From Gammaproteobacteria bacterium (GTDB lineage Bacteria; Pseudomonadota; Gammaproteobacteria; Eutrophobiales; Eutrophobiaceae), in NCBI GenBank assembly GCA_965116495.1, contig OZ220696.1, forward strand, positions 1,075,493 to 1,139,492: DNA of 64,000 nt, given 5' to 3'. The position numbers were made by a program, and so were the translations under genes. The first letter of the stretch is position 1, and each line of letters begins with the position of its first letter. The notes beneath the pieces are model-generated. The model was not told the DNA's origin. It saw only the letters and a program-made list of their open reading frames with translations, and did no database searches. Positions 317 through 45,863 of the stretch are shown piece by piece.

Positions 317-326
317 TAAATGTTAT

Positions 327-474
327 ATCCGCAGATTACGCAGATTAACGCAGATTAAAATCAATTCAATTTAAACCATTCGTACGTTCGAAAGATTAAA
401 TATTCATTCACATGAAAACTTGAATTACAGAATTAATACAAATTTATCTGCGTTAATCTGCGTAATCTGCGGAT
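327..474. repeat. CGCAGAT-iteron inverted-repeat miniature element, copy 1 (arms 327-355 and 446-474)
   Basis: ATCCGCAGATTACGCAGATTAACGCAGAT and its exact reverse complement flank a 90-bp AT-rich spacer between the glxK stop and the avtA-like start. Confidence 0.9.
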
Positions 475-481
475 AATTTTT

Positions 482-1727: not shown

Positions 1728-2183
1728 CTATCTATACACCTGGTAGGTTACGCGGTCACCAACGGTGATATCCCGTTTTTGTACCTGCCCGGCTTTCAGT
1801 TCCAGGACGGCTTTGACCCGGCCGTCCGACGGCATCACTTTAGTGGATTCCGGCTGTGCGTTCTCGACGATCTTGACGATGTATCCATCCGTATCGATAT
1901 AAATTATATCAAGCGGGATAAAGGTATTCTTCATCCAGATATTCAACCGTTGCGGTTTTTCGTTCAATAACAACATTCCCTGGTTTGCCGGCAAGCTTGA
2001 CCGGTACATCAGACCGATGCTTTTCAAACGCGGGTTATCGGCAACCTCAACCCGGTAATACAGGTTGTCATATTTCGTATTTATCGTCAGTGAACCTGAC
2101 TTGAAATGGGTCTGGCCGATACAGCTCGCGCTGATGAACAGCAGGAATAGAAGGCAACAGTCTCGACGACACTCTATTATCAT
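1728..2183 (-). CDS. DUF192 (COG1430) family protein
   Basis: 151 aa with an N-terminal hydrophobic segment and the TFIPLDIIYID motif typical of DUF192. Confidence 0.6.
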   Translation of the reverse strand: MIIECRRDCCLLFLLFISASCIGQTHFKSGSLTINTKYDNLYYRVEVADNPRLKSIGLMYRSSLPANQGMLLLNEKPQRLNIWMKNTFIPLDIIYIDTDGYIVKIVENAQPESTKVMPSDGRVKAVLELKAGQVQKRDITVGDRVTYQVYR

Positions 2184-2188
2184 TGATC

Positions 2189-2303
2189 AATTACGAATTA
2201 CAAATTACAAATTACGAATTAGGAATTACGAATTACGAATTACGAATTACGAATTGGGTTTTTAAGATTTTAATTCCTAATTCGTAATTTGTAATTCCTA
2301 ATT
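2189..2303. repeat. Heptamer tandem array (AATTACG/AATTAGG)n with downstream inverted array, locus 1
   Basis: About 10 direct 7-bp units at 2189-2257, a short loop, then inverted units at 2270-2303. Confidence 0.9.
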
Positions 2304-2765
2304 GATCTTCTTATTGTCTTCTTCACTCTTCGTTGCCCTGTTGTATCCGCTGTCCTGCCTGTTCAGGTTGACCGCGTGTTTCTGGCAATAAATATCGTAC
2401 ACTTTTTCCGGCGTAAGACCCGAGCATATCAGCGCGGAGACAAGAAAATGCAGTATATCGATTAATTCAACCCGGATATTCTGTATGTCGATATCATCCT
2501 TGCTCCACCACTTCCATAATAACTCTTCATCAAGCTCCAGTATCTCCTCGCGCATCGCCCTGGAATAGTTTGATAACCAGGTATTGGGCAGGTCATTGAC
2601 CTTGAGGCCGCCTTCATTGACCTGCGAATAGATGGTATCCATGGTCAGGGGATTCCCTGAAGTATCCTTGAGACCGTTTTTTTTGAAAACGTAATCGTTC
2701 AGTTCGGTCTGCATCCTGAAGATACGTTTGAGCATGTCGATCTCTGCAGATTTTTCAATATCCAT
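2298..2765 (-). CDS. All-alpha NTP pyrophosphohydrolase-like protein (dimeric dUTPase / MazG-like), start at internal ATG
   Basis: MDIEKSAEIDMLKRIFRMQTELNDYVFKK...EEILELDEELLWKWW...ELIDILHFLVSA. The upstream part of the listed 218-aa ORF is probably not translated. Confidence 0.4.
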   Translation of the reverse strand: MDIEKSAEIDMLKRIFRMQTELNDYVFKKNGLKDTSGNPLTMDTIYSQVNEGGLKVNDLPNTWLSNYSRAMREEILELDEELLWKWWSKDDIDIQNIRVELIDILHFLVSALICSGLTPEKVYDIYCQKHAVNLNRQDSGYNRATKSEEDNKKIN

Positions 2766-3190
2766 CGTTCGCGTCCCTATTTTTGACCGCCGGGAGTAAT
2801 TCGCCCCCCCGGGTAACAGGCCGAGGACAGATTTCAAATCTGTCCCCTTCTCTGCCCGAATTAGCGGGAGCCGTTGAATTGATTTGATTATTATTGCCAT
2901 TTTCGCTATTTTCGTACACACTATACAAGTAGTTTGCATATTTTCTCTGGTCAATTCAGTAATTCCGGTTGGTTTTTCCTGTATTACCTTGCTGAATTTG
3001 CAACACGTTAGGCGTCGGGAAACTCTTGTTTATTCAGAATTTCCCGCGAGGCAGGGATACGCCATCATGTGCTTTCGCAATGTGATTGGACATGTGGGAA
3101 AATCGAAAACCCGGGTTTTCGATCTTCATGTTCTGAAAATTCCGGGATGGAATTATTCAGGGATATTTTAATTTTTTCACGAGGTGATAT

Positions 3191-4443: not shown

Positions 4444-4597
4444 ATCCGCAGATGACGCAGATAAACGCAGATTAAAAGACAATTCTTTATATGTGGATGG
4501 TGACCAGGTCGGATTTAATCAATAAAGTCTGAATTTGTCCGGGGCCTGTCAAGTTTTAATATCTTTTATCTGCGTTTATCTGCGTGAATCTGCGGAT
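4444..4597. repeat. CGCAGAT-iteron inverted-repeat element, copy 2 (arms 4444-4472 and 4568-4597)
   Basis: ATCCGCAGATGACGCAGATAAACGCAGAT and its reverse complement, sitting between convergent gst and cfa. Confidence 0.9.
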
Positions 4598-8344: not shown

Positions 8345-8542
8345 ATGTGTCTGAAAATCACTACAGTCGGGAATTCAACCGGTGTCGTTTTGCCCAAAGA
8401 CCTGTTGGCGAGACTACGCGTCGGCATTAGCCGCTTGGACCAGGTTACATTTAAATCAACGGCATTTGGATTCAGTCCACGAACCGGGTGTGCCCCGGCA
8501 ACGCCGTCCGGCTTAATGCTGCCAGCGCAGCCTGACCCGTAA
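8345..8542 (+). CDS. Possible AbrB/MazE-family antitoxin-like small ORF (orphan, possibly decayed)
   Basis: The N-terminus ITTVGNSTGVVLPKDLLARLRV resembles the swapped-hairpin antitoxin motif, but the C-terminal half is not convincing and overlaps the 3' end of the ygfX-like gene. Confidence 0.25.
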   Translation: MCLKITTVGNSTGVVLPKDLLARLRVGISRLDQVTFKSTAFGFSPRTGCAPATPSGLMLPAQPDP

Positions 8543-8971
8543 CCGTCTCAGCGTTTGCTTGTCCAGGTTGTCATGGGTCAGTACGCAAGGATGGGTCCGG
8601 CCGGCCGTGTCCTTGAAGTGCAGTACCACTATCTGCGGGTGGACCAACGCGCCGGGCAGCAACCTGAGGTTGACGGCTTCGCAGTTGTCACTGAATAACT
8701 GCCATTGGTCGTGCTTGTCCAGCTTGAAGCAGATGTCCTCCGGAGAGAGAAATCGCGTTATGTAAATGCCATAATTGACCAGGACGCAGGTTCCGGCAAA
8801 TACCATGGCAATGGCCGGAATATCTGCCACGAACAGGCAGACAATCGCCCCTATATGCACCAGGGTATTAAAAATACCCACCCGTACAGAGCGCCGGTAA
8901 TGAATGAAAATCGGTAGTTCAAACGGGGCTTCCAGGCCGGTTACATCGGGCATCCCTTTCTTGCAATCCAT
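8513..8971 (-). CDS. YgfX/CptA-like inner-membrane protein (DUF1434)
   Basis: Two predicted TM helices, then a W..L and ...TLRRLRVRLRWQ C-terminal pattern similar to E. coli YgfX. The real start may be the internal MPDVTG at 8953. Confidence 0.45.
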   Translation of the reverse strand: MDCKKGMPDVTGLEAPFELPIFIHYRRSVRVGIFNTLVHIGAIVCLFVADIPAIAMVFAGTCVLVNYGIYITRFLSPEDICFKLDKHDQWQLFSDNCEAVNLRLLPGALVHPQIVVLHFKDTAGRTHPCVLTHDNLDKQTLRRLRVRLRWQH

Positions 8972-12951: not shown

Positions 12952-13021
12952 ATCCGCAGATTACCCAGATATACGCAGATGAAAAAAATGAATCAAAAAA
13001 TAATCTGCGTTAATCTGCACC
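12952..13021. repeat. CGCAGAT-iteron inverted-repeat element, copy 3 (short spacer), between sdhA and sdhB
   Basis: ATCCGCAGATTACCCAGATATACGCAGAT ... ATCTGCGTTAATCTGCACCATCTGCGGAT. An extra partial ATCCGCAGG abuts the sdhA stop codon. Confidence 0.9.
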
Positions 13022-17029: not shown

Positions 17030-17168
17030 TGGCTGTTTGACTGGATTCCGGCTTCCGCCGGAATGACGGATTGACTTCCACCGGAATGACGGATTGACTT
17101 CCACCGGAATGACGGATTGGCTTCCGTCGGAGTGACGGATTGGCTTAACGGCGGAATGACGGGTTGGC
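17030..17168. repeat. Tandem array of about six 23-bp units (ACGGATTGACTTCCACCGGAATG) built on the GTCATTCCGG REP half-site
   Basis: Direct reading of the sequence; lies between convergent dsbB and ffh. Confidence 0.85.
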
Positions 17169-18527
17169 TTAACGGCGGAAACCGCGCTGCTGCATATTAC
17201 CGCCCATTGCGCGCATCATGTTTTCCATGCCGCCTTTTTTACTCAGCTTTTTCATCATCTTCTGCATCCGGTTGAACTGCTTCAACAGGCGATTGATATC
17301 CTGGATCTGGGTCCCTGAGCCGGAAGCAATGCGTTTTTTCCTGGAACCGTTGATGACGGCCGGAAAGCGCCGTTCTCCGGGCGTCATGGAATTAATGATC
17401 GCCTCTGTTTTTACCAGTTCCCGCTCCTGGCCCCCGATATCCGCAGGCATCTGCTGCATCCCCGGCATCTTGTCAAGCAGACCGGTCAGCCCCCCCATGC
17501 GCTGCATCTGCCGGACCTGGTCGCGAAAATCATCCAGGTCAAACCCCTTTCCCTTTTTCAGCTTCCTGGCGATCTTTTTCGCCTTTTCCTGGTCCGTTTT
17601 TTCCTCCACCTCCTCAATCAGGCTCAACATGTCGCCCATGCCCAGAATGCGCGAGGCAATCCTGTCGGGGTGAAATCCGGACAACTCCGAGGTTTTCTCA
17701 CCGGTACCCAGGAACAGGATAGGCTTGCCGGTGACATGCCGGACCGACAGCGCCGCTCCGCCCCGGGCGTCTCCATCCGCTTTCGTCAATATGACGCCGG
17801 TCAGGTCCAGGGCATCGTTAAACGCCCGGGCTGCATTTACCGCATCCTGGCCCATCATGCTGTCCACCAGGAACAGGGTATCAGTCGGGCTAAGCGCGCC
17901 ATGGATGTGTTGAATCTCCGCCATCATTTCATCGTCGATGTGCAACCTTCCGGCAGTATCGACAATCAGGACGTCGGCAAACATCGCCCTGGCGTGTTTC
18001 AGCGCTGCCTTGGCAATGTCTACGGGTTTTTGCTTCCCATCAGCCGGATAGTATTCCAGTTGATTTTCCTGCGCCAGTACCCGCAACTGTTCCAGGGCCG
18101 CAGGCCGGTAGATATCGCAACTGGCCACTACTACTGACTTGCCGTGCTTGTCCCGGCACCAGTTGCCCAGCTTGGCCACCGTCGTGGTCTTGCCGGCGCC
18201 CTGCAAGCCCGCCATCAGAATGACTGCGGGTGGCGGGACGCTTAAATTCAATGAGGCCTGTTCATCTCCCATCAAATGGACCAGTTCATCCTGCACAATT
18301 TTGACGACGGCCTGTCCCGGGCTGAGGCTGGCCGATACCTCCCGGCCCAGCGCCTTGCTTTCGACCCGCTCGAGAAACGCCTTGACGACCGGCAAGGCTA
18401 CGTCTGCCTCCAGCAAGGCCAGGCGTACATCCCGCATGGTGTCCCTGACATTATCTTCCGTCAGGCGCGCATGCCCTCTCAATTGCTGGATGATACGGCT
18501 GAACCGCCCGGTTAAATTTTCAAACAT
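17169..18527 (-). CDS. ffh: Signal recognition particle protein Ffh
   Basis: 452 aa with an N/G GTPase domain (GLQGAGKTT) and a Met-rich M domain. Confidence 0.92.
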   Translation of the reverse strand: MFENLTGRFSRIIQQLRGHARLTEDNVRDTMRDVRLALLEADVALPVVKAFLERVESKALGREVSASLSPGQAVVKIVQDELVHLMGDEQASLNLSVPPPAVILMAGLQGAGKTTTVAKLGNWCRDKHGKSVVVASCDIYRPAALEQLRVLAQENQLEYYPADGKQKPVDIAKAALKHARAMFADVLIVDTAGRLHIDDEMMAEIQHIHGALSPTDTLFLVDSMMGQDAVNAARAFNDALDLTGVILTKADGDARGGAALSVRHVTGKPILFLGTGEKTSELSGFHPDRIASRILGMGDMLSLIEEVEEKTDQEKAKKIARKLKKGKGFDLDDFRDQVRQMQRMGGLTGLLDKMPGMQQMPADIGGQERELVKTEAIINSMTPGERRFPAVINGSRKKRIASGSGTQIQDINRLLKQFNRMQKMMKKLSKKGGMENMMRAMGGNMQQRGFRR

Positions 18528-18547: not shown

Positions 18548-18696
18548 ATCCGCAGATGGCGCGGATTTACGCAGATTATATGTGAATTTTACCGGTAACA
18601 ATCGAAATCCGGCAGGCAATCTGACATCCGTTCACAATTCGAGTAAACTCGTTTTATTAAAACCGTTACGCAATATCATCTGCGCTAATCTGCGGA
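18548..18696. repeat. CGCAGAT-iteron inverted-repeat element, copy 4 (right arm shortened to two iterons), in the divergent ffh / ypjD region
   Basis: ATCCGCAGATGGCGCGGATTTACGCAGAT ... ATCTGCGCTAATCTGCGGA. Confidence 0.85.
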
Positions 18697-19544: not shown

Positions 19545-19715
19545 TGAGTCACCGGCTGGATTCCGGCTTGCGCCGGAATGACGAGGGTTGCGCCGGAATG
19601 ACAGGGGTTGTGCCGGAATGACGAAAACGTCATGCCGGGCCTGACCCGGCATCTACTGGGTTCCGGCTTGCGCCAAATGGCTGGGGTTGCGCCGGAATGA
19701 CACTTGCATCCTCCC
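19545..19715. repeat. Array of GCGCCGGAATGAC REP-type units plus a GTCATGCCGGG...CCCGGCATCTAC palindrome
   Basis: Direct reading of the sequence. The reverse strand would encode the well-known spurious VIPAQAGIQ peptide. Confidence 0.85.
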
Positions 19716-26154: not shown

Positions 26155-26422
26155 TAGTACTCTTTCAACTTAATATTGACATGTTCAGCGGGTCGGGAAG
26201 CGGTTGAGCGCAAGGCACGCCGCGCCGGGAATGGCGCGCCCTTGCCAAGCGGTGTAACGCCGCGGGCGACCGCTTCCCGGCCCGCCCGCAGGGAGCCACA
26301 CAGCGACGCCAATACGGCGTTGCAGCCCTTGACAAGGGCGCGCCATTCTCTGCGGGCTGCGCCTTGTCTTGACGCCGCTGTGTGGCTCTGAACATGTCAA
26401 TATTAAGTTGAAAGAGTACTAG
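26155..26422. repeat. 268-bp element: perfect 34-bp terminal inverted repeats enclosing a 200-bp, >70% GC, internally self-complementary core
   Basis: TAGTACTCTTTCAACTTAATATTGACATGTTCAG at 26155-26188 is the exact reverse complement of 26389-26422. The core has nested complementary blocks such as GGGAAGCGGT/GACCGCTTCCC and GAGCCACACAGCG/CGCTGTGTGGCTC. Confidence 0.85.
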
Positions 26423-26423
26423 C

Positions 26424-28039
26424 AGTCTGTCGGACTTGGGCGCTGCGATTATCTTTGCGGACCACTTTTCAGGTCTTTTTGTCGCGGCAAGGCGCACGTG
26501 CATGTTGCCTGAACCTATACATGTACATTATGGGGATGTACAGACCTCACCAGGCGCCTGTCCTGACCGGGTAAACACCCACTGCCCCCTGCATCAGGCC
26601 AGCTGCATGTTATGCAGGCGTTTACAGTTGTAGGCCAGGGCCAGTAACTGCCACTCACCGGTCACCTTCTCATGGCCGCGCAGGAGAAACTGCCGGAACC
26701 CCAGGGCCTGCTTCATGATACCGAACACCGGCTCCACGGTCTGCTGCCGCAACCGGTAGCTGGCCCGGTTGTCCGCCTGTGATAACTTCTCTTGCATCGC
26801 CACCAGCCAGGGCGCTTTCGCCGGCTTGGGCTTGGCCGCCTGCGCCGGGTCCGGCAACGGGCGGAAGTCATGCCGCCGGCGCCGGTCCTCCGTCCCCACC
26901 GCCACCAGCACGTCTATCTCCCGACCGGTCAGCGCAGCCACTTCTGTCTCCGTCGCATAGCCGTTGTCCGCCAACACCTGGGCAGGGGTCCCCAACGCCG
27001 CCGGCACCGAGTCAATGTCAGCGACCAATTCGTTGCGGTCGCTGGCGCATTGGCTGACCCGCGTCCCCAGCACCAACTGGCTGCCGTCCGCATCCACCAC
27101 CGCCTGCGCATTGTACGCCTGCCGGTACTCACTGCGTTTGTTCTTGCGCATCAGGGAACTGTCCGCATCCGTCAGGTTCACCTGGGTGTCCTCCGCCGGG
27201 GTGTCTTCCGGCGGCTTGATAGGGTGCCCCTTGGCCCGGCCCCGACGCTTCTCACGCGCCGCCACCTTGCGCTCGTACTCGGCCTGGTCCGCCTGCGCTT
27301 GCGCCTTGGCCTGGCGCTCCAGACGTGCGCAGGCCGCATCCAGTTGCGTCGCCAGCGCCTCCCGCCGCGCCAACGCCTTCGGCAACTGCTGCGGGTCCGC
27401 CGCGTCCTGGCTGTCCGCACGCTCCGCTTCGGCCAGCAAATCCTTGACCTCACCCCGCAACTGCTCGCGTAATTCCACCGCCCGGTCATAGCGGATACTG
27501 CGCCGCTTGCTCGCAGCCGCCTTCACCTTCGTCCCGTCCACACTCACCCGGCCCACCGTCAACAACTTCAATTCCTTCGCCAGCAATAACACCTCCACAA
27601 AACCCGCCTGTACCGCCTCAAGGTTCTCCCGCCGGAACTTGCAAATCGTGTCATGGTCCGGGTGCGTGTTCGCCGTCACGTAACGCACCCCGATATCCCG
27701 GTACGTCGCTCGCTCAATCCGGCGCGAGGAAAAAATACCGTTCGCATAACAATAAATCAGCAACGCCAGCATGATACGCGGGTGATACTGTGCCGACCCC
27801 GTGCCCCGGGTGTTCACCACAAACTGACTCAAAGGCACCCGTTCCACCGCTGCCACGACAAAATGCGCCAGGTCATCCTCGGGTAGCCACTCGCGTAAAT
27901 CCGGTGGTAACAGGTAGGGTTGGTTACGGTCACTTTGCACAAAGTTTTCCATCGAAGCAGCCTCTATCGAACAGCGTGTGGTATCATCAAATCGTGTCGT
28001 CTATTATACCTCTATCCCAGCCCTAAGTCCGACAGACTG
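26424..28039 (-). mobile_element. IS1182-family (IS5 superfamily) insertion sequence with ~20-bp imperfect terminal IRs and a CTAG target-site duplication
   Basis: IR-L is CAGTCTGTCGGACTTGGGC; IR-R is GCCCCTAAGTCCGACAGACTG. CTAG occurs at 26420-26423 and 28040-28043. Confidence 0.85.
26594..27952 (-). CDS. IS1182-family DDE transposase
   Basis: 452 aa with an N-terminal HTH region, a central Ala/Arg/Glu-rich coiled coil, and a C-terminal DDE domain (VLADNGYATE...). Confidence 0.85.
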   Translation of the reverse strand: MENFVQSDRNQPYLLPPDLREWLPEDDLAHFVVAAVERVPLSQFVVNTRGTGSAQYHPRIMLALLIYCYANGIFSSRRIERATYRDIGVRYVTANTHPDHDTICKFRRENLEAVQAGFVEVLLLAKELKLLTVGRVSVDGTKVKAAASKRRSIRYDRAVELREQLRGEVKDLLAEAERADSQDAADPQQLPKALARREALATQLDAACARLERQAKAQAQADQAEYERKVAAREKRRGRAKGHPIKPPEDTPAEDTQVNLTDADSSLMRKNKRSEYRQAYNAQAVVDADGSQLVLGTRVSQCASDRNELVADIDSVPAALGTPAQVLADNGYATETEVAALTGREIDVLVAVGTEDRRRRHDFRPLPDPAQAAKPKPAKAPWLVAMQEKLSQADNRASYRLRQQTVEPVFGIMKQALGFRQFLLRGHEKVTGEWQLLALAYNCKRLHNMQLA

Positions 28040-28140
28040 CTAGGTTGGTTTACTGGATTCCAGCGTGCGCCAGAATGACGGTATTATTTATTTTGACTAT
28101 TTTTTTACCTTGGCAATTGTACCCTGATATAGTTTGCAGC

Positions 28141-28899
28141 ATGAGAAAATTATTTTACCTGGCAGTGCTGCTCTGGTTCCCCGGAGCGCATGCACAGTCC
28201 ATGAACGTCGCGGTCGCATCCAACCTGACCCATACGATTAGCGAAATCAGCAAGGTTTTTTTTCTGGATGAGGGAGAAAAGGTCAACCTGACTTTTGGTT
28301 CATCCGGGAATTTTGCCAGGCAGATCGTACAGGGTGCGCCTTACAAGGTCTTTATTTCCGCCGGCAAACAGTACGTGGACTTCATCCGGGACAAGGGCCG
28401 GGAGACAATCGGCTTCAAGGCGCTGGTTCATGGCCGCCTCAGCTTGTATATCCCGGAAACATCGAAACTGGAAAAGCAGGCGACACTGGCCGATGCGCTG
28501 AAGACGATTCAATACGGCGACTTCCGCAGACTGGCTGTCGCCAACCCGGAACATGCACCCTATGGCCAGGCTGCCAGGGAAGCGCTGGTCAATGCAGGTG
28601 TATGGGTTGTTAACCACAAAAAGCTGCTGTTTGGTGAAAATGCAGCGCAGGCAATGCAATTCTGCCTGTCCGGAAGCGTAGACATGTGTATCATTCCCAG
28701 TTCTTTTCTGGTGCTGGAACAATTCTCAGGCAAGGGAGACAATTTCACGATCCCGCTGAAGTGGCACCCTCCCATCACTCAATACGCTGTTTTGCTCGAT
28801 AACAGCGATGAACAGGGCGTGCGCTATTTTAACTACCTGTCGTCCGCGTCCAGTGAAGCCATTTTCAGGAAACACGGCTACATCTTGATTGAGAATTAA
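28141..28899 (+). CDS. modA: Molybdate ABC transporter substrate-binding protein
   Basis: Signal peptide MRKLFYLAVLLWFPGAHA followed by the ModA-like VAVASNL...SSG fold; start 96 bp downstream of the IS end. Confidence 0.85.
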   Translation: MRKLFYLAVLLWFPGAHAQSMNVAVASNLTHTISEISKVFFLDEGEKVNLTFGSSGNFARQIVQGAPYKVFISAGKQYVDFIRDKGRETIGFKALVHGRLSLYIPETSKLEKQATLADALKTIQYGDFRRLAVANPEHAPYGQAAREALVNAGVWVVNHKKLLFGENAAQAMQFCLSGSVDMCIIPSSFLVLEQFSGKGDNFTIPLKWHPPITQYAVLLDNSDEQGVRYFNYLSSASSEAIFRKHGYILIEN

Positions 28900-29056
28900 G
28901 AATTAGGAATTACGAATTACGAATTGGGAATTGGGAATGACTGTACATGGCGGGGTTCTGTTTATCGAGATGGCCGTACCAAATCAGCACCGCTCAGAAC
29001 TTGTGTTAGAGTAACGTGTCCCCAATTCGTAATTCCTAATTCGTAATTCGTAATTC
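28892..29056. repeat. Heptamer array hairpin, locus 2: forward (GAATTAA/GG/CG) units at 28892-28939, inverted units at 29020-29056
   Basis: The array begins inside the modA stop codon and ends 8 bp before the modB ATG. Confidence 0.9.
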
Positions 29057-29064
29057 AAATTTAT

Positions 29065-29736
29065 ATGGACTGGCAAGCCCTAAACGTTTCCCTGCTTCTC
29101 GCCGCGCTGACTGCGCTAATCCTGACACCCATCGGAATCCTGGTCGCACGCAAGCTGGCCTGGTCGCAATTCCCCGGACGCAATTTCGCCCAGGCCCTGG
29201 TTGCGCTGCCATTGATATTGCCGCCGACCGTATTAGGCTTTTACCTGATGATCAGCCTGGGAGAACTGTCACCCATCGGCAGGTTGTATGAGGGAATAGC
29301 GGGTGAGTCCCTGGTATTCTCGTTCGAGGGTATCCTGCTGGCATCGATTATTTTCAATATCCCGTTCGCCGTCCAGCCGGTACAACGCAGTTTCGAGTCA
29401 ATACCGCTCAATGTGCGCGAGGCGGCCTGGTGCAGCGGTCTTTCCGGCTGGCAGACATTCTGGCGCATCGAACTGCCCCTGGCGTGGCCGGGGGTTATCT
29501 CTGCCGCCATCCTGACCATTGCCCATACCCTGGGCGAATTCGGGGTGGTCCTGATGGTGGGCGGTAACCTGGCCGGTGAAACCCGCACCGTCGCCATTGC
29601 CATCTATGATCGCGTCCAGGCTTTCGATAACGCCGGCGCCGCAACCATGTCCGCGGCACTGCTCGTGATTTCGCTTGTCTCCATCACTCTGATCTACTTC
29701 CTGACTGACCGGGCAGGTAACCATGGCCGACGCTGA
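29065..29736 (+). CDS. modB: Molybdate ABC transporter permease
   Basis: 223 aa with 5 TM segments and an EAA-like loop. Confidence 0.85.
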   Translation: MDWQALNVSLLLAALTALILTPIGILVARKLAWSQFPGRNFAQALVALPLILPPTVLGFYLMISLGELSPIGRLYEGIAGESLVFSFEGILLASIIFNIPFAVQPVQRSFESIPLNVREAAWCSGLSGWQTFWRIELPLAWPGVISAAILTIAHTLGEFGVVLMVGGNLAGETRTVAIAIYDRVQAFDNAGAATMSAALLVISLVSITLIYFLTDRAGNHGRR

Positions 29737-30831: not shown

Positions 30832-31533
30832 TCATTTCTCCTCTTGCTCTTCCATTCTAGCCTTTGAAAGTGCAGACGCCAACAGTCCTGCCGGAATAGC
30901 GACTATCCCTAAGCCAATCATTAAAATGAGAAAAGTAAATATTTTTCCTCCCGCTGTTATGGGATAAACATCACCATAACCTACTGTTGTTAAAGTGGTC
31001 ACTGCCCACCATAAGCTATGGATAATACTTTTGAACGCTTCCGGCTGAGCCTCGTTTTCGCAATAATAAATGCCCACAGCTGATAAATATAAGAGCATCA
31101 CAGTTACCACGCCGAAAATAGCAATCTCTTCTTTTGCAATTACAAACGCCCTGGTAAATCTCCGAATAGCCTTGCCGGATCGGAAAAATTTCATAAGCCG
31201 AATAATCCGTAGCCATCGGAGATCAATGCTGAATGACAGGAAAAAGAAAAGATAAAAAGGGATGATCGCTATCAAATCGATGAGTCCATAAATACTCAGT
31301 ACATAACCGAGTTTCCTGTCAGCCACATAAAATCTAAGAAAATATTCAACGGTAAATATGATTACTATGACTACTTCTGTAATATGAAGTAATTTTCTGG
31401 CGCTGGCTCCAAGATCAGGTAACGTTTCTATGGAAAACGTGATAACAGAGAACAAGATCAGTGATTGCATAACCAGATCGAATATACGACCCGCTTGAGT
31501 ATCGTTTCTCTCAACTATCGACTTTATATTCAT
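30832..31533 (-). CDS. Voltage-gated K+ channel (6TM, Kv-like)
   Basis: S4 segment LRWLRIIRLMKFFR and TVGYGD selectivity filter. The gene is ~39% GC against ~57% GC flanks. Confidence 0.85.
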   Translation of the reverse strand: MNIKSIVERNDTQAGRIFDLVMQSLILFSVITFSIETLPDLGASARKLLHITEVVIVIIFTVEYFLRFYVADRKLGYVLSIYGLIDLIAIIPFYLFFFLSFSIDLRWLRIIRLMKFFRSGKAIRRFTRAFVIAKEEIAIFGVVTVMLLYLSAVGIYYCENEAQPEAFKSIIHSLWWAVTTLTTVGYGDVYPITAGGKIFTFLILMIGLGIVAIPAGLLASALSKARMEEQEEK

Positions 31534-33240: not shown

Positions 33241-33260
33241 ATTGAGAATTATGATTATTT

Positions 33261-33426
33261 ATCTGCAAATTACGCAGATTATCGCAGATAAAAATACAAA
33301 TTTATTATTGAAGTTGTCTGGTTCAGATATGGTTAATTTAAACCTGATTTTATCCGGAAGCTGAAAAACAGTTAATCAGTAAATTTTTTTATAATTTAAT
33401 CTGCGATAATCTGCCTAATCTGCGGA
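33261..33426. repeat. CGCAGAT-iteron inverted-repeat element, copy 6, in the divergent yejF / yejA region
   Basis: ATCTGCAAATTACGCAGATTATCGCAGAT ... ATCTGCGATAATCTGCCTAATCTGCGGA. Confidence 0.85.
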
Positions 33427-33432
33427 CAAATA

Positions 33433-36248: not shown

Positions 36249-36261
36249 TCTCTCAATTCCG

Positions 36262-36296
36262 TCATTCCGGCGAATGCCGGAATCCAGTGAGATACA
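36262..36296. repeat. REP-type palindrome CCGTCATTCCGGCGAATGCCGGAATCCAG
   Basis: Direct reading of the sequence; between yejB and yejE. Confidence 0.85.
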
Positions 36297-36404
36297 GCGT
36301 CGACTGCAGGACGACCCGTTGTTTCACTGGATTCCGGGTCCGGCCCCTGGTTACTACGTGCAGGGGCAGGCCCGGCATGACGAGCAAAGAGGAGGTCCTG
36401 TTCC

Positions 36405-38010: not shown

Positions 38011-39684
38011 GTGAAATCGTCTGAAAAACTGTTGTCCGTCAACGACCTTACGGTGCATTTCGACACCGACGAGGGCGTTGTCGAGGCGGTCAACGAGGTC
38101 AGCCTGGACATCCGGCGCGGCGAGATCGTCGGATTGGTGGGAGAGTCCGGATCCGGCAAGACCGTGACCGCGCAGAGCATCCTGCGCCTGGTGCCGCGCC
38201 CGCCGGCCCGTTTCGTCAGGGGCGCAGCAATTTTCAACAACGAAAACCTGCTGGCTCTGCCCATCGATCGCCTCAGAAAAATACGCGGCGCTGAGATCAG
38301 CATGATTTTCCAGGAACCGATGACTGCACTCTCGCCGCTGCACAGGGTCGGCCGGCAACTCAGCGAATTGCTGCGCTTCCATACCGACCTGGACCAGGAA
38401 GCGGCCTGGAAACTCGGTACGGAATGGCTGGACAAGGTGGGACTACCGGAGCCCGAGGAGCGCATGTCGTTCTATCCCCATCACTTGTCCGGGGGCATGC
38501 GGCAGCGGGTCATGATCGCCATGGCCCTGATGCTGAAACCGCAATTGATCATTGCGGACGAACCCTCAACCGCCCTGGACGTGACGGTACAGGCACAGGT
38601 TTTCAGGTTGCTGATGAGCATGAAAGATGAGGACACGTCCATGCTGCTGATCACCCATGACCTGGCGGTCGTCTGGGAGGTGTGCGACCGGGTCTACGTC
38701 ATGAAAAACTCCAGGGTGGTCGAACGCGGCGCGATCGAACCCATATTCAAAGCGCCTGCCCATGCCTATACCCGTTCGCTGCTGCAAGCGGTGCCGCGGC
38801 TGTACCAGGCCGGGGAAGAGGAAAGGAGAACGGCAACAGGAAGAAAGCAGGTAGAGGATACCGGGGATGGATTAATCAGGACGAAAAACCTGCGCGTCTG
38901 GTTCCCGGTGAAAAAGGGACTGTTCGCCCGCACGGCCGGGCACGTCAAGGCAGTCGATGATATCGACCTTTCCATTGCCGCAGGATCGACGGTGGGCCTG
39001 GTCGGTGAATCGGGTTCGGGCAAAACCACCCTGGGGCGAGCTATCATCGGCCTGCAACCCATCAACGACGGTAGTATCGTCTTCGAAGATACTGAAATCG
39101 GCGGCCTGAAGAAGAACCGCATGAAACCCTGGCGCCGTAACCTGCAGATGATCTTCCAGGATCCCTATTCATCGCTGAACCCGCGCATGACAGTCATGGA
39201 CATCCTGACGGAAGGCATCAAAGAGCACGGCCTGCTGGACATGCCGAAACAGGACAAGGCCGTACAACTGCTGGAAGAGGTCGAATTGAGGGCGGACATG
39301 GCCAACCGTTATCCGTTTGAGTTCTCCGGCGGCGAACGCCAGCGTATCAGTATCGCCCGGGCGCTGTCGCTGGAGCCGAAGTTCATTGTCTGCGACGAGG
39401 CCGTCAGCGCCCTGGACGTGACCATACAAGCGCAGATCATCGACCTGCTGCGCCGGCTGCAGGCGCGCCACGGCATCACCTACCTGTTCATCTCCCATGA
39501 CCTGAGCGTCGTCCGGCAACTGTCCGAACAGATCCTGGTGATGCACCAGGGCAGGATCGTGGAACGCGGCAGGACGGATGACGTCATCTTCAACCCGCAG
39601 CACGAATATACCCGCACACTGCTGGACGCCGTCCCCGTCCCCGGCGATATCGAGCGCCGCCGGCGCATGCGGGGCAAAAAATAA
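38011..39684 (+). CDS. Second peptide ABC transporter ATP-binding protein with two fused NBDs (YejF paralog)
   Basis: GESGSGKT occurs twice with two LSGG signatures; 557 aa. Confidence 0.85.
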   Translation: MKSSEKLLSVNDLTVHFDTDEGVVEAVNEVSLDIRRGEIVGLVGESGSGKTVTAQSILRLVPRPPARFVRGAAIFNNENLLALPIDRLRKIRGAEISMIFQEPMTALSPLHRVGRQLSELLRFHTDLDQEAAWKLGTEWLDKVGLPEPEERMSFYPHHLSGGMRQRVMIAMALMLKPQLIIADEPSTALDVTVQAQVFRLLMSMKDEDTSMLLITHDLAVVWEVCDRVYVMKNSRVVERGAIEPIFKAPAHAYTRSLLQAVPRLYQAGEEERRTATGRKQVEDTGDGLIRTKNLRVWFPVKKGLFARTAGHVKAVDDIDLSIAAGSTVGLVGESGSGKTTLGRAIIGLQPINDGSIVFEDTEIGGLKKNRMKPWRRNLQMIFQDPYSSLNPRMTVMDILTEGIKEHGLLDMPKQDKAVQLLEEVELRADMANRYPFEFSGGERQRISIARALSLEPKFIVCDEAVSALDVTIQAQIIDLLRRLQARHGITYLFISHDLSVVRQLSEQILVMHQGRIVERGRTDDVIFNPQHEYTRTLLDAVPVPGDIERRRRMRGKK

Positions 39685-41315
39685 TGAGCTGGACAGGTCG
39701 AACCGGGTTAGTGGCCAGCCTAGTTTCGACATTATTGCTGGCTGCCTCATGCGGCTTCAATTACGAAACGAATGTAGAGAGCGGTGCGCGTGAGGGGATA
39801 TTACATATCGGTAATGGCGACGAACCCCGGGAGCTTGATCCCCATGTCGTAACCGGCCGCATCGAGTCCGACCTGTGCCTGGCGCTGCTGGAAGGCCTGG
39901 TCGGCTGGCATCCCGAAGGAAAGCGCTTGATCCCCGCCGCCGCCAAATCCTGGGAGCAAAGCGAAGACGCCAGAACATACCGGTTCCACCTGCGTGAAGA
40001 CGCAAAATGGTCCAACGGCGACCCGGTAACGGCCACGGACTTTGTCTATTCATGGCGCCGGGCGCTGCTGCCTGCCCTGGGCAACAACTATGCTTATATG
40101 CTGTATTACATCAGGAACGCGGAAAGGTTCCACCAGGGGGAAATAACGGATTTCTCCCGGGTGGGCATCACGGCGCCCGATGACCTGACCCTGGTGGTCG
40201 AACTTGAGAACCCGACGCCATTTTTCCTGCAGTTACTGACACACATGAGCTATTATCCCGTCCACCAGGCGACTGTCGAAGCGTTCGGGGCCGCGGATGA
40301 ACGCGGCACGCGCTGGACCCGTCCGGGGAACCACGTGGGGAACGGCCCGTTCAAGCTGAAGGAGTGGGTGCTGAACCGCAGCATCGTCGTGGAGAAGAAC
40401 GAATATTACTGGGATGCCGGTGCGGTGAAATTGAACCAGATCGTCTTCTACCCAGTCCAGAATGCGACCACGGAAGAACGCATGTTCCGCGCCGGCCAGT
40501 TGCACATCACCACTAATATGCCGGTTGACAAGATAGCGCACTACCGGCAGGAAAGACCCGGCACCCTGAAAATCTCACCTTATTTATCGACCTACTACTA
40601 TCTCTTCAATACTACCGTTGCGCCGCTCGACCGGGTAAAGGTCAGGCAGGCCCTGACCATGTCCATCGACCGGCAACAGGTAGTAGATAAGATCACCAAG
40701 GCGGGAGAGATCCCGGCCTTCAGCTACACCCCGCCTGATACCAACGGCTACACGGCAACCGCGCGGGTACGCTATGACCTGGAACGCGCCAAGGCCCTGC
40801 TCGCGGAAGCGGGCTATCCTGGCGGGACGGGTTTTCCCGGCCTGGAGTTAATGTACAACACCTCCGAGGGGCATCGCCGGATAGCCATAGCCATCCAGCA
40901 GATGTGGAAGACCAACCTCAACATCGACGTTACGCTGACGAACCAGGACTGGAAGGTATACCTGGATAAACGCGATGAGAAAGACTACCAGGTAGCGCGG
41001 GCCGGCTGGATTGGTGATTACCTGGATCCCAATACCTTTCTCGATATGTACACTACAAACAGCGGCAATAACGACACGGGCTGGTCGAACCGGCGCTACG
41101 ACGCACTGATAGCACTGGCCGGCGCAACCACGGACCAGGAACGCCGCTTCACCCTTTTCCAGGATGCCGAATCCATCCTGATGACCGAGTTGCCTATCAT
41201 GCCCATCTACACGTACGTCAGCAAATCACTGGTCTCACCGGACGTGCGCGGCTGGTATCCGAATATCCTGGATATCCACCCGTTTAAATATATTTCCCTG
41301 GTGTCAGGAAAATGA
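39684..41315 (+). CDS. Second family-5 substrate-binding lipoprotein (OppA/DppA-like)
   Basis: Lipobox LLAASC; 543 aa. Confidence 0.8.
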   Translation: MSWTGRTGLVASLVSTLLLAASCGFNYETNVESGAREGILHIGNGDEPRELDPHVVTGRIESDLCLALLEGLVGWHPEGKRLIPAAAKSWEQSEDARTYRFHLREDAKWSNGDPVTATDFVYSWRRALLPALGNNYAYMLYYIRNAERFHQGEITDFSRVGITAPDDLTLVVELENPTPFFLQLLTHMSYYPVHQATVEAFGAADERGTRWTRPGNHVGNGPFKLKEWVLNRSIVVEKNEYYWDAGAVKLNQIVFYPVQNATTEERMFRAGQLHITTNMPVDKIAHYRQERPGTLKISPYLSTYYYLFNTTVAPLDRVKVRQALTMSIDRQQVVDKITKAGEIPAFSYTPPDTNGYTATARVRYDLERAKALLAEAGYPGGTGFPGLELMYNTSEGHRRIAIAIQQMWKTNLNIDVTLTNQDWKVYLDKRDEKDYQVARAGWIGDYLDPNTFLDMYTTNSGNNDTGWSNRRYDALIALAGATTDQERRFTLFQDAESILMTELPIMPIYTYVSKSLVSPDVRGWYPNILDIHPFKYISLVSGK

Positions 41316-41540
41316 CGAATTAGGAATTACGAATTACGAATTACGAATTAGGAATTACGAATTACGAATTACGAATTACGAATTACGAATTACGAATTAG
41401 GAATTAGGAATTAGGAATTAGGAATTACGAATTAGGAATTAGGAATTAGGAATTAGGAATTAGGAATTAGGAATCATTAAGTTGGCAAAATACTTCACTA
41501 ACCTAGAATTCGTAATTCCTAATTCCTAATTCGTAATTCT
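41316..41540. repeat. Heptamer array hairpin, locus 3: ~22 forward GAATTAC/GG units at 41316-41474, inverted units at 41504-41540
   Basis: Starts on the base after the SBP stop codon and ends 12 bp before the permease ATG. Confidence 0.9.
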
Positions 41541-41552
41541 CTAGATAATAAT

Positions 41553-42485
41553 ATGTTCAAATTCATACTCAAACGCTTGTTGCAAGCGATCCCGGTACTG
41601 CTGGTTGTCAGCGTCATCACTTTCCTGCTGATCCATGCGGCGCCCGGCGGGCCGTTTGCCGAGGAGAAGGCGGTCCCACCGGAAGTGCTCAAGCACCTGA
41701 ACGAACGTTACAAGCTGGACCAGCCTATTTACGTTCAATTTTATGACTACATCAGCCATGCCATTAAGGGAGAGCTGGGACCCTCCTTCAAATATCCCGG
41801 CAGGTCGGTAAACGAGATCATCGCCGCCGGTTTCCCTGTCACGCTGGAACTGGGTTGTTACGCCCTGCTGTTCGCCCTGCTCATCGGTATCGGCAGCGGG
41901 GTGTGCGCGTCGTTGAACCCGAATACCTGGCAGGACTACGTCCCCATGACGTTTGCCACCATCGGTATCTGCCTGCCCGCATACGTACTGGGCCCGTTGC
42001 TGGTGCTGGTCTTCGGCATCTGGCTGGAGTGGTTGCCCGTGGCCGGCTGGGGGCTGATCCCGGGGGACAAGATTCTACCCTCCGTTACCCTGGGTTCGGT
42101 GTATGCCGCCTACATCGCCCGGCTGAGCCGGGGCGGGATGCTGGAAACCCTGTCCCGGGATTTTATCCGCACCGCACGGGCCAAGGGCATGCCCGAGGCG
42201 GTGATCATATTCCGTCATGCCATGCGGGTCGGCCTGTTGCCGGTAGTGTCCTTCCTTGGACCGGCGCTGGCGGGTCTGCTCAGCGGTTCCTTCGTGGTTG
42301 AAACCATTTTCCAGGTGCCGGGCCTGGGCCGCTACTTCGTACAGGGCGCATTCAACCGGGATTACACCCTGATCCTGGGCACCACCCTGTTATTCGCTTC
42401 CCTGATCATCGTCTTCAACCTGATCTCCGACGTGATGCTGGCATGGCTGGATCCCAGGGTAAGGCAGGAGACCGTCCATGGGTGA
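41553..42485 (+). CDS. Peptide ABC transporter permease (OppB/DppB-like)
   Basis: 310 aa BPD permease. Confidence 0.85.
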   Translation: MFKFILKRLLQAIPVLLVVSVITFLLIHAAPGGPFAEEKAVPPEVLKHLNERYKLDQPIYVQFYDYISHAIKGELGPSFKYPGRSVNEIIAAGFPVTLELGCYALLFALLIGIGSGVCASLNPNTWQDYVPMTFATIGICLPAYVLGPLLVLVFGIWLEWLPVAGWGLIPGDKILPSVTLGSVYAAYIARLSRGGMLETLSRDFIRTARAKGMPEAVIIFRHAMRVGLLPVVSFLGPALAGLLSGSFVVETIFQVPGLGRYFVQGAFNRDYTLILGTTLLFASLIIVFNLISDVMLAWLDPRVRQETVHG

Positions 42486-43381: not shown

Positions 43382-43534
43382 ATCCGCAGATGACGCAGAT
43401 TACCGCAGATAAAAATATAAAAGATCAGGAGACTTACAAAATTCTTGGGGCGGCAATGGCTGTACATAGAGAACTGGGACATGGTTTTCTTGAGACTTGT
43501 TTTTAATCTGCGTTAATCTGCGTCATCTGCGGAT
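43382..43534. repeat. CGCAGAT-iteron inverted-repeat element, copy 7, carrying a 28-codon GxxExxY-family gene fragment (43420-43506) in its spacer
   Basis: The arms are perfect 29-bp inverted repeats. The spacer translates to KDQETYKILGAAMAVHRELGHGFLETCF* and ends exactly at the right arm. Confidence 0.8.
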
Positions 43535-45670: not shown

Positions 45671-45692
45671 CCGCCCTGATATCAGGATGTAT

Positions 45693-45840: not shown

Positions 45841-45863
45841 AGATCATCCACGGCATTTCCCGG

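What the first reader, a model, noticed from the sequence alone, without database searches (positions are those of the whole stretch)
2189..2303. Heptanucleotide (GAATTAC/GG)n tandem arrays, each followed by a short inverted array, form hairpin elements at three loci
Arrays of 7 to ~22 tandem AATTACG/AATTAGG units lie at 2189-2257, 28892-28939 and 41316-41474. Each is followed after 15-80 bp by 4-5 inverted units, so each locus can fold into a hairpin whose stem is made of heptamer repeats. The unit is AT-rich within a 57% GC genome. Copy number differs greatly between loci, which suggests slippage-driven length variation. Such hairpin-forming heptad arrays are not a described REP, MITE or CRISPR class.
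Basis: seen in the sequence. Interest (0 to 1): 0.55.

Follow-up and report, generated by a model that had tools for sequence, protein, structure and literature searches.

The report
Heptamer-repeat hairpins between operon genes
Three spots in this bacterial genome carry runs of the 7-base unit GAATTAC/GAATTAG, each followed by a short inverted run, wedged between the stop codon of one gene and the start of the next; this is an AT-rich variant of a repeat type already described in Xanthomonas whose function is still unknown.

Summary
(GAATTAS)n arrays of about 10, 7 and 22.6 units lie at 2188-2258, 28893-28941 and 41317-41474. Each is followed after 10-80 nt by 4-5 inverted units. All three loci fold far better than shuffled sequence (z -6 to -8.6).

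All three sit in the stop/start junction of co-directional genes, and two lie between a solute-binding-protein gene and its permease gene.

Relatives show unit-number changes in both arms (5' arm about 1, 4, 7 and 8 units), empty sites, and replacement by other hairpin repeat families at the same junction.

The same unit forms arrays in many phyla and in viral contigs. Pairs have a fixed order (GAATTAS arm first: 39 v 4). The two arms share rare unit variants. There are no target-site duplications and no shared interior.

Rehm et al. 2015 described convergent inverted pairs of heptameric GGGAATC repeats in Xanthomonas with the same location and length variation, function unknown. The window's unit cannot form G-quadruplexes, which is the new element.

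Best reading: slippage-prone heptamer repeats whose arms copy each other. Once transcribed they probably act as REP-like intercistronic RNA hairpins. The function is inferred, not shown.

The parts
2188..2258 (+). Locus 1 long arm: 10 units of GAATTAS type (CAATTAC, GAATTAC, AAATTAC x2, GAATTAG, GAATTAC x4, GAATTGG). On the transcribed minus strand this is the 3' arm. The ATG of the DUF192 gene (2183-2181) follows 4 nt after it.
2259..2268 (.). Locus 1 loop, about 10 nt.
2269..2304 (-). Locus 1 short arm, 5 inverted units. It is the 5' arm on the minus-strand transcript. The TAG stop (2300-2298) of the upstream dUTPase_2-like gene lies inside its first unit. It shares the rare variant AAATTAC with the long arm.
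1728..2954 (-). Flanking co-directional genes of locus 1: a dUTPase_2-family ORF (2298-2954) upstream and a DUF192 ORF (1728-2183) downstream.
28893..28941 (+). Locus 2 5' arm, about 7 units (GAATTAA, GAATTAG, GAATTAC x2, GAATTGG x2, GAATGAC). The TAA stop of the modA-like gene (28897-28899) lies in the first unit.
28942..29021. Locus 2 loop, 80 nt (83 nt as delimited), unique to this locus. It is 94% identical to L020 while the flanking modA and modB are 80-84% identical.
29022..29056 (-). Locus 2 3' arm, 5 inverted units including CCCAATT, which mirrors the GAATTGG units of the 5' arm. The modB-like ATG (29065) follows after 8 nt.
28045..29736 (+). Flanking genes of locus 2: a molybdate-type solute-binding protein (SBP_bac_11, 28045-28899; relatives are 252 aa, so the true start is probably later) and an ABC permease (29065-29736).
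41317..41474 (+). Locus 3 5' arm, 22.6 units of GAATTAG/GAATTAC. It begins 1 nt after the TGA stop (41313-41315) of the oppA-like gene.
41475..41506 (.). Locus 3 loop, about 32 nt. It contains a sigma-70-like match (TTGGCA, 16 nt, TAGAAT; 10 of 12 positions; 41482-41509) that points towards oppB and may be a chance match.
41507..41539 (-). Locus 3 3' arm, 4-5 inverted units. The oppB-like ATG (41553) follows after 13 nt.
39684..42485 (+). Flanking genes of locus 3: an oligopeptide-type solute-binding protein (SBP_bac_5, 39684-41315) and an OppB-like permease (41553-42485).

Best explanation
These are convergent inverted pairs of a heptanucleotide simple-sequence repeat. They are an AT-rich variant, unable to form G-quadruplexes, of the class described for GGGAATC in Xanthomonas.

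Shown: they occupy the junction between the stop codon of one gene and the start codon of the next co-directional gene. They gain and lose whole 7-nt units in either arm. The two arms of one element carry the same rare unit variants, so they are copies of each other. The element can be absent, or replaced by another hairpin repeat family, at the same junction in close relatives.

Inferred origin: DNA-level replication slippage in steps of 7, plus arm-to-arm copying by inverted duplication or template switching across the palindrome.

Inferred effect: the element is transcribed within the operon mRNA and folds into a 27-35 bp A/U-rich stem. That stem most likely behaves like REP hairpins in E. 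coli malE-malF and hisJ-hisQ. It would block 3' exonucleases and probably be cut by RNase III, so the upstream solute-binding-protein message outlasts the permease message. The stem also holds the upstream stop and the downstream start close together, which would explain why the insertion is tolerated in once tightly coupled junctions. Unit number would set stem length, so the effect could be tuned by slippage.
For: Class and anatomy:
- Period-7 arrays with inverted partners.
- Strong folds.
- Match to the published Xanthomonas architecture.

Junction position:
- Stops lie inside or 1 nt before the first unit and starts 4-13 nt after the last.
- In L335 the empty modA-modB site reads TAG-c-ATG; in L337 oppA and oppB overlap.

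Slippage:
- 5'/3' arm unit counts of about 1/5, 4/3, 7/5 and 8/5 in L332, L333, the window and L020 at one orthologous site.

Arm copying:
- 9 rare unit types are shared within elements, against 2.9 on average for shuffled partners (0 of 5000 shuffles reach 9).
- Unit order is mirrored in L334 and L102.
- The outermost stem unit is GAATTAC/GTAATTC in the window and GAATTAG/CTAATTC in L020.

Turnover:
- The window alone has the heptamer element at oppA-oppB. Relatives of 76-94% identity carry the CGCAGAT family there.

REP-like context:
- Two of three loci lie between a solute-binding-protein gene and its permease gene.
- Other hairpin repeats fill other junctions of the same operon.
- No T-run follows the stems, so they are not terminators.
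Against: - No expression data exist for this organism, so the RNA effect is entirely inferred.
- Sense and antisense strands fold about equally well across 13 elements (differences from -8 to +10.5 kcal/mol, no trend). Nothing therefore marks the RNA rather than the DNA as the selected form.
- The hairpin is dispensable: close relatives have empty sites at both junctions, and L332 has lost the 5' arm.
- Rehm et al. found no regulatory role for the Xanthomonas repeats.
- Slippage and template switching alone do not explain the fixed arm order (39 v 4), the absence of pairs among control heptamers, or the wholesale replacement of a CGCAGAT element by a 22-unit heptamer element within about 6% protein divergence.
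Confidence: 0.5

Rival explanations
1. The elements are functionless by-products. Heptamer slippage and template switching build them, and they persist only where they do little harm. The compact hairpin happens to be harmless at gene junctions and has no role in expression.
For: Presence/absence polymorphism exists at both junctions. One arm has decayed in L332. Unpaired arrays show no orientation bias relative to genes: 40 v 30 after stops and 30 v 29 before starts. There is no sense/antisense folding bias. No role was found in Xanthomonas. Heptamers are the commonest long SSR class, and a polymerase-slippage cause has been proposed.
Against: Arm order is fixed at 39 v 4. Composition-matched control heptamers show no pairs in 45 arrays. 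The unit is 3-6-fold enriched over those controls. The locus-2 loop is 94% conserved against 80-84% for the coding flanks. Some hairpin element sits at the oppA-oppB junction in most relatives.
Confidence: 0.27
2. The elements are non-autonomous mobile elements, or substrates of a sequence-specific enzyme. A trans-acting protein would recognise the GAATTAS stem in a fixed orientation and copy or move the element between junctions and, through phages, between phyla.
For: The fixed outside-in polarity matches that of transposon ends. Pairing is specific to this unit. The same unit occurs in many phyla and in 89 viral-contig stretches, some carrying several copies. A different repeat family was recently replaced at oppA-oppB. 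The locus-2 element is younger-looking than its flanks. The window has 3 copies in 64 kb, while syntenic 20-kb stretches of relatives have 0-1.
Against: There are no target-site duplications: best flanking direct repeat 2.4 nt against 1.9 +/- 0.2 for shuffled flanks. Loops at the three loci are unrelated, and the locus-2 loop occurs nowhere else in the DNA held. No RAYT, Y1 or other candidate enzyme was found among the 30 window ORFs scanned; the only transposase is an IS5-type DDE gene next to an unrelated palindrome. Most arrays elsewhere are unpaired.
Confidence: 0.17
3. The arrays work on double-stranded DNA as binding sites for a regulator or nucleoid protein, or as non-B DNA (G-quadruplex or cruciform) that affects transcription or replication.
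For: Unpaired arrays are indifferent to strand. Three units span 21 bp, which is two helical turns. The published interpretation of the related Xanthomonas repeats is G-quadruplex formation.
Against: GAATTAC has no G-run and GAATTAG has only GG, so a G-quadruplex is excluded by sequence for most units. The elements lie inside operons rather than in promoter regions. No binding protein is known.
Confidence: 0.05
4. The arrays are assembly artefacts produced by collapsed or chimeric reads.
For: Low-complexity arrays are error-prone in assembly, and the 22-unit array has no orthologue to confirm its exact length.
Against: The modA-modB element is present at the same site in three other independent assemblies with coherent unit differences. 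The same arrays occur in finished isolate genomes such as Calothrix NIES-267 and Nostoc NIES-4103.
Confidence: 0.01

Closest known systems
Heptameric GGGAATC repeats of Xanthomonas (Rehm et al. 2015, PMC4692102)
   Same: Both are tandem 7-nt units of 2-26 copies, about 90% intergenic, close to the upstream ORF and mostly between co-directional ORFs. Both occur equally on either strand. Some 70-75 cases per Xanthomonas genome are two arrays in convergent orientation on opposite strands. Length varies extensively between sister species, and the function is unknown. The window variant GGGAATT (= AATTGGG) differs from GGGAATC by one base.
   Different: The window's main units GAATTAC and GAATTAG lack G3-4 tracts and cannot form the G-quadruplexes on which that paper's interpretation rests. 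Here all three copies are paired and sit exactly on stop/start junctions. The unit is found across many phyla rather than in one genus.
Cyanobacterial short tandemly repeated repetitive (STRR) heptamers and Nostoc GGGGA(C/T)T repeats
   Same: Both are intergenic tandem heptamers. GAATTAS arrays themselves occur in Nostoc, Calothrix, Anabaena and Planktothrix. Some arrays grade into GACTGGG/GATTGGG units (L006).
   Different: The unit sequences differ. The classical STRR units are CCCCAGT, TTGGTCA and CAACAGT (from my own knowledge of Mazel et al. 1990). Few inverted pairs are reported in Nostoc.
TAACTGA direct repeats of Beggiatoaceae, Cyanobacteria and Bacteroidetes (MacGregor 2015, PMC4679880)
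   Same: Both are heptamer direct repeats in intergenic regions within a few nt of gene boundaries, with a patchy distribution across distant phyla and an unknown origin.
   Different: TAACTGA sets are short (2-6 copies), lie mostly in forward orientation just upstream of start codons, and include only one inverted repeat among 170 sets. GAATTAS arrays show no orientation bias and often pair.
REP / BIME / REPIN elements of enterobacteria and pseudomonads
   Same: Both are extragenic hairpin-forming repeats that often lie between co-transcribed genes, classically between a periplasmic binding-protein gene and its permease gene (malE-malF, hisJ-hisQ). There they stabilise the upstream mRNA (established knowledge: Newbury et al. 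1987). Different families can occupy one site in related strains.
   Different: A REP is a fixed imperfect palindrome of 20-40 nt with a conserved sequence, mobilised by RAYT transposases. Here the stem is a variable number of 7-nt units, the loop is unrelated between copies, and no RAYT was seen.
MITEs and eukaryotic foldback elements
   Same: All have inverted terminal arms with a fixed outside-in polarity. Foldback elements of Drosophila also have arms built of short tandem repeats with unequal arm lengths (my own knowledge).
   Different: There are no target-site duplications, no conserved interior and no cognate transposase. The distribution spans many phyla.

Membership tests
Convergent heptameric SSR pairs (Xanthomonas GGGAATC type, Rehm 2015) | Head-to-tail tandem repeats with a 7-nt unit and variable copy number | tested here: met
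   TRF period 7, with 4.7-22.6 copies.
Convergent heptameric SSR pairs (Xanthomonas GGGAATC type, Rehm 2015) | Two arrays in convergent orientation on opposite strands, close together | tested here: met
   All three loci. Across other genomes and viral contigs, 39 pairs have the purine-rich arm first and 4 have the reverse order.
Convergent heptameric SSR pairs (Xanthomonas GGGAATC type, Rehm 2015) | Intergenic, close to the end of a neighbouring ORF, mostly between co-directional ORFs | tested here: met
   Stops lie inside or 1 nt before the array.
Convergent heptameric SSR pairs (Xanthomonas GGGAATC type, Rehm 2015) | Length and sequence variation between closely related genomes at the same site | tested here: met
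   modA-modB site in the window, L020, L332, L333, L334 and L335.
Convergent heptameric SSR pairs (Xanthomonas GGGAATC type, Rehm 2015) | G-rich unit (G3-4 tract) able to form G-quadruplexes | tested here: not met
   The units are GAATTAC (405 of the units counted) and GAATTAG (207). Only the minor GAATTGG variant has GGG, when joined to the next unit. Hence this is a variant, not a plain member.
REP / BIME / REPIN | Conserved imperfect palindromic unit of about 20-40 nt | tested here: not met
   The stem is a variable number of 7-nt units and no fixed palindrome is present.
REP / BIME / REPIN | Cognate RAYT (Y1 transposase) in the genome | tested here: inconclusive
   None among the 30 window ORFs scanned. 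The rest of the 4.3-Mb genome was not available.
REP / BIME / REPIN | Stabilises upstream mRNA in polycistronic transcripts | not testable with these tools
   No transcript data. Only the context (solute-binding-protein gene to permease gene) agrees.
MITE | Target-site duplication flanking terminal inverted repeats | tested here: not met
   Best flanking direct repeat 2.37 nt on average, against 1.88 +/- 0.22 for shuffled flanks, over 30 pairs.
MITE | Copies within a genome share interior sequence | tested here: not met
   The three loops are unrelated in length and sequence. The locus-2 loop is found only at that locus.
CRISPR array | Direct repeats of about 24-48 nt separated by unique spacers of similar length | tested here: not met
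   The units are 7 nt and contiguous, with no spacers.
Intrinsic terminator | G+C-rich hairpin followed by a U-tract | tested here: not met
   The scan reports no terminator-like site at loci 2 and 3. At all three loci the stems are A/T-rich, and they are followed by AAATTTAT, TCTAGATA or GATCAATG.
TAACTGA-type upstream heptamer repeats (MacGregor 2015) | Forward orientation immediately upstream of start codons | tested here: not met
   Unpaired GAATTAS arrays: 30 sense v 29 antisense before starts, and 40 v 30 after stops.
Rfam RNA families | Match to a curated covariance model | tested here: not met
   Only three tRNAs in the window at gathering threshold. Nothing at E <= 1 on locus 2.

The most novel reading that the evidence does not exclude
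GAATTAS hairpins, with the related GGGAATC type, are a distinct class of sequence-specific, polarity-constrained elements. On this reading a still unknown factor copies or installs them at gene junctions, leaves no target-site duplication, and carries them across phyla and on phages. They would then be more than passive slippage products. The grounds are the fixed arm order (39 v 4), the absence of pairs among control heptamers, the arms that copy each other, the recent swap with another repeat family at one junction, and a loop better conserved than the flanking genes.
Probability: 0.17. Interest if true: 0.8.

Novelty: new variant of a known kind. Interest (0 to 1): 0.5.

Why it matters
Heptanucleotide repeats are the most abundant long simple-sequence repeats in prokaryotes, yet nobody knows why or what they do. 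The only detailed study of the paired form explained it by G-quadruplex formation. The same paired architecture exists here with a unit that cannot form quadruplexes, so that explanation cannot be general.

Four further properties give concrete handles on the problem:
- a strict arm order;
- arms that evolve in concert;
- placement exactly on stop/start junctions;
- a spread over many phyla and viral contigs.

If the hairpins do tune the ratio of binding protein to permease through slippage, they would be a built-in, heritable and reversible expression rheostat inside operons.

Tried and rejected
- **Rfam:** the whole window at gathering threshold and locus 2 at E <= 1 gave no family.
- **Literature search by unit sequence:** only unrelated papers.
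- **Source record:** look-up by exact protein failed twice, so the organism stays an unnamed gammaproteobacterial MAG lineage. Its closest named record is OZ242265.1.
- **MITE hypothesis:** rejected, with no target-site duplication and no shared interior.
- **RAYT or transposase link:** none found among the 30 window ORFs scanned. The only transposase, an IS5-type gene, adjoins a different palindrome whose arms occur nowhere else in the window.
- **Intrinsic terminator:** rejected.
- **G-quadruplex:** rejected on sequence.
- **RNA-strand test (sense v antisense folding, G-U pairs):** no trend.
- **Orientation bias of unpaired arrays relative to genes:** none.
- **Missing Shine-Dalgarno site before modB and oppB as evidence for coupling:** dropped, because only 17 of 45 genes in the window have an SD-like motif.
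- **Covariation in the locus-2 stem:** only three sequences are available, with one pair changed on both sides, so it is uninformative.

Full report
**1. The observation**

The window contains three loci with tandem heptamers of the type GAATTAC/GAATTAG.
- TRF finds period-7 arrays at 2189-2255 (9.6 copies), 28893-28938 (6.6) and 41317-41474 (22.6).
- Each is followed by a 4.7-copy array of the complementary unit, at 2271-2303, 29024-29056 and 41507-41539.
- A two-unit pattern with up to 2 mismatches hits 47 times, all in these loci, against 0.33 expected.
- The arms are 92-97% complementary.
- As RNA the loci fold to -43.4, -64.1 and -68.3 kcal/mol, with z-scores of -7.3, -6.0 and -8.6 against dinucleotide shuffles.
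- The window is 55% G+C, and the units are about 71% A+T.

So the description is correct, apart from small details of coordinates and G+C content.

**2. Context**

All three elements lie between co-directional genes, exactly at the stop/start junction.
- Locus 1 (minus strand) separates a dUTPase_2-family ORF from a DUF192 ORF. The upstream TAG lies inside the first unit, and the downstream ATG follows the last unit by 4 nt.
- Locus 2 separates a molybdate-type solute-binding protein from its permease. The TAA lies in the first unit, and the ATG is 8 nt after the last.
- Locus 3 separates an oligopeptide-type solute-binding protein from an OppB-like permease. The TGA is 1 nt before the array, and the ATG is 13 nt after it.

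No T-run follows any stem, and the scan of loci 2 and 3 reports no terminator-like site there. Rfam has no matching family.

The rest of the window is ordinary chromosome, with ffh, lon, clpXP, tig and ABC transporters. It has one IS5-type transposase that is not associated with these elements.

**3. Relatives of the same genome lineage**

The locus L020 (OZ242265.1, a gammaproteobacterial MAG) is 95% identical to window 31643-36248 and 83% identical over the mod operon. Homologues of the ModA-like protein gave further syntenic contigs.

At the modA-modB junction:
- L335 is empty: TAG, one base, ATG.
- L333 has the element with 4 units in the 5' arm and 3 in the 3' arm.
- The window has 7 and 5 units, and L020 has 8 and 5.
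- L332 has lost all but about one unit of the 5' arm.
- L334 has a different, G-rich heptamer hairpin (GGGATTA, GGGGCTA, GGGGTTA, GGGATCA, ...). The order of its unit variants is mirrored in the other arm.

Whole-unit changes in both arms between close relatives confirm slippage-type length variation. The empty site shows that the junction was once tightly coupled.

The 83-nt loop as delimited (80 nt by the arm boundaries used in the parts list) is 94% identical between the window and L020, while the flanking 300 nt of modA and modB are 80% and 84% identical. The loop occurs nowhere else in the DNA I hold. I cannot explain this conservation.

At the oppA-oppB junction the picture is the same, but with a swap of families.
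- L252, whose OppA is 94% identical, carries an element of a second family. Its arms are tandem CGCAGAT-type 9-10-mers, and a 15-nt version extends OppA in frame by (SADDL)n.
- Nearly all OppA relatives from 76% to 94% identity end in ...PSADD..., the translation of that unit. Only the window's protein ends ...VSGK.
- L336 has a CGCAGAT hairpin with a 30-bp stem and L253 a short one.
- L338 has a 289-nt spacer with a partial arm.
- L337 and L339 have no element.

So the CGCAGAT family is ancestral at this site, and the 22-unit heptamer element replaced it recently in the window's lineage. A hairpin at this junction is common but not obligatory.

**4. Distribution elsewhere**

The phyla and groups include Cyanobacteria, Bacteroidota, Ignavibacteria, Acidobacteriota, Chloroflexota, Planctomycetota, Verrucomicrobiota, candidate-phyla-radiation groups, Firmicutes MAGs and Gammaproteobacteria. 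Locus G+C ranges from 31% to 68%.

In viral contigs the pattern gives 89 stretches, against 14 and 28 for two composition-matched control heptamers. The unit is therefore favoured but not unique.

About a fifth of the arrays in genomes, and a tenth in viral contigs, have an inverted partner within 300 nt.
- The order is almost always 5'-(GAATTAS)n ... (STAATTC)m-3', which reads the same from either strand: 26 v 4 in genomes and 13 v 0 in viral contigs.
- The control heptamers have no partner in 45 arrays.
- Unpaired arrays show no orientation bias relative to genes (40 v 30 after stops, 30 v 29 before starts).
- Many ORFs end inside the array, at offsets that are multiples of 7.

**5. How the arms relate**

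Rare unit variants are shared by the two arms of one element but differ between elements.
- Examples are AAATTAC at locus 1, GAATTGG at locus 2, GAATTAT in L120, GAATTGC in L102 and TAATTAC in L041.
- Nine types are shared, against 2.9 on average when partners are shuffled. None of 5000 shuffles reaches nine.
- Between the window and L020 the outermost stem unit changed from GAATTAC/GTAATTC to GAATTAG/CTAATTC, that is on both sides.

The arms are therefore inverted copies that stay matched. Inverted duplication or template switching across a quasi-palindrome would produce this. That mechanism is established knowledge (Ripley 1982; Lovett and co-workers); its action here is inference.

There are no target-site duplications, and the interior is not shared, so the elements are not classical MITEs.

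**6. Comparison with the literature**

- Rehm et al. 2015 (PMC4692102) described 186 and 183 GGGAATC heptamer repeats in two Xanthomonas genomes. These have 2-26 units, are about 90% intergenic, lie on average 28 nt from the upstream ORF, and sit mostly between co-directional ORFs and on both strands.
- In 70-75 cases per genome, two arrays lie in convergent orientation and could form stem-loops or cruciforms. Length variation between the two species is extensive, the repeats are transcribed, and no function was found.
- The authors stressed G-quadruplex formation. The window's elements share every architectural feature except the G-tract, and the minor variant GGGAATT is one base from GGGAATC.
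- MacGregor 2015 (PMC4679880) described short TAACTGA direct repeats upstream of start codons. That paper cites Mrazek 2007 for heptanucleotides being the commonest long SSR, possibly because of polymerase slippage.
- A Nostoc preprint reports modest effects of other heptamer arrays on reporter expression.

New here are the non-quadruplex unit, its breadth across phyla, the strict arm order, the concerted arms, the exact junction placement, and the exchange with other repeat families.

**7. Mechanism**

Shown:
- the anatomy;
- the junction position;
- unit-wise variation;
- concerted arms;
- gain, loss and replacement.

Inferred:
- The element is transcribed with its operon and forms a 27-35 bp A/U-rich stem.
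- By analogy with REP hairpins between malE-malF and hisJ-hisQ (established knowledge), such a stem would protect the upstream binding-protein message from 3' exonucleases. Being long perfect duplex RNA, it would probably also be cut by RNase III. Either way it would separate the fates of the two cistrons.
- The stem brings the stop and start codons together, which may explain why 120-240 nt can be inserted in a formerly 1-nt junction.

Against a required function:
- empty sites in relatives;
- loss of one arm in L332;
- no sense/antisense folding bias;
- the negative result in Xanthomonas.

Against a purely passive origin:
- the fixed arm order;
- the specificity of pairing to this unit;
- the replacement event;
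- the conserved loop.

I put about 0.5 on the combined reading (slippage-prone paired SSR with a REP-like RNA effect), 0.27 on a functionless by-product, and 0.17 on a specific mobile or enzyme-driven element. The remainder goes to the DNA-level binding or structure model.

**8. Caveats**

- My gene calls in foreign loci are simple longest-ORF calls.
- The partner-shuffle test does not separate element-specific from genome-specific variants, although the three window loci show that the variants are element-specific.
- Only two control heptamers were tested, and only in viral contigs.
- No expression data exist for this lineage.

Noticed in passing
window 326-475, 4447-4594, 33243-33445, 43382-43534, 45692-45841, 18560-18694, 12964-13019: A second hairpin repeat family. 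The arms are three tandem 9-10-mers (TATCCGCAGATGACGCAGATTAACGCAGAT), always in the same convergent order. They flank a non-conserved interior of about 85-100 nt, apart from the short copy at 12964-13019 with about 25 nt. Copies lie in convergent, divergent and co-directional intergenic regions. There are 15 two-unit matches against 0.14 expected.
   Followed up: partly
L252 2650-2935; OppA relatives P0122-P0155: In relatives, a 15-nt version of the CGCAGAT unit lies in frame at the 3' end of oppA. It extends the protein by one to four SADD(L) repeats, so a non-coding repeat family supplies the C-terminus and the stop codon.
   Followed up: partly
window 17050-17170, 19568-19624, 36250-36375, 47782-47793, 48135-48244: A third repeat family built on GCCGGAATGACG / CGTCATTCCGGC, with 13 hits against 0.5 expected. 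It occurs as 20-23-nt tandem arrays and as palindromes, one of them between two permease genes of the same ABC operon.
   Followed up: partly
window 28942-29021: The loop of the modA-modB element is 94% identical to L020 and 95% to L333, while the flanking coding DNA is 80-92% identical. Its first half is replaced in L332. There is no Rfam hit, and the loop is unique to this locus. This is unexplained.
   Followed up: partly
window 41482-41509: A sigma-70-like match (TTGGCA, 16 nt, TAGAAT; 10 of 12 positions) lies inside the loop of locus 3 and points to oppB. If real, it would give a transcript carrying only the 3' arm as an unstructured leader. It may be a chance match: 12 promoter-like sites were found in the region against 9.7 expected.
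   Followed up: no
window 26155-26421 and 26594-27952: A 267-bp nested palindrome has perfect 34-nt terminal inverted repeats that occur nowhere else in the window. It lies beside an IS5-type DDE transposase gene (DDE_Tnp_1, DUF772). It is MITE-like and unrelated to the heptamer elements.
   Followed up: partly
window 30832-31533: An ion-channel gene (Ion_trans) with low third-position G+C (0.38, against about 0.7 for its neighbours) lies between modC and the next ABC gene. In L020 this gene is absent and a CGCAGAT-family element occupies the gap. It is probably a recent insertion.
   Followed up: partly
whole window: Only 17 of 45 genes have a Shine-Dalgarno-like motif. Many starts are preceded by A/T-rich sequence such as AATAATG. 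This suggests weak reliance on SD pairing in this lineage. Phyla rich in GAATTAS arrays (Cyanobacteria, Bacteroidota) are also known for low SD use (the phylum statement is my own knowledge).
   Followed up: no
L006 3366-3617: In a Poriferihabitaceae MAG the heptamer arms are nested inside a G+C-rich palindrome (ATCCGCCTGCGGCGG ... CCGCCGCAGGCGGAT). The array grades into GACTGGG, GATTGGG and AATCAGG units, which links the unit to the STRR1 and Xanthomonas types.
   Followed up: partly
window 62516-63361 and 8513-8971: A PLD-family / NgoFVII-like restriction endonuclease ORF with low third-position G+C (0.47), and a CptA-type membrane toxin ORF. Both are possible defence or toxin-antitoxin genes.
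   Followed up: no
L155, L161, L141, L138 (viral contigs): Some IMG/VR contigs carry three to six GAATTAS arrays each, several as convergent pairs with 12-21-nt loops. Phage or prophage genomes therefore carry the element repeatedly.
   Followed up: no
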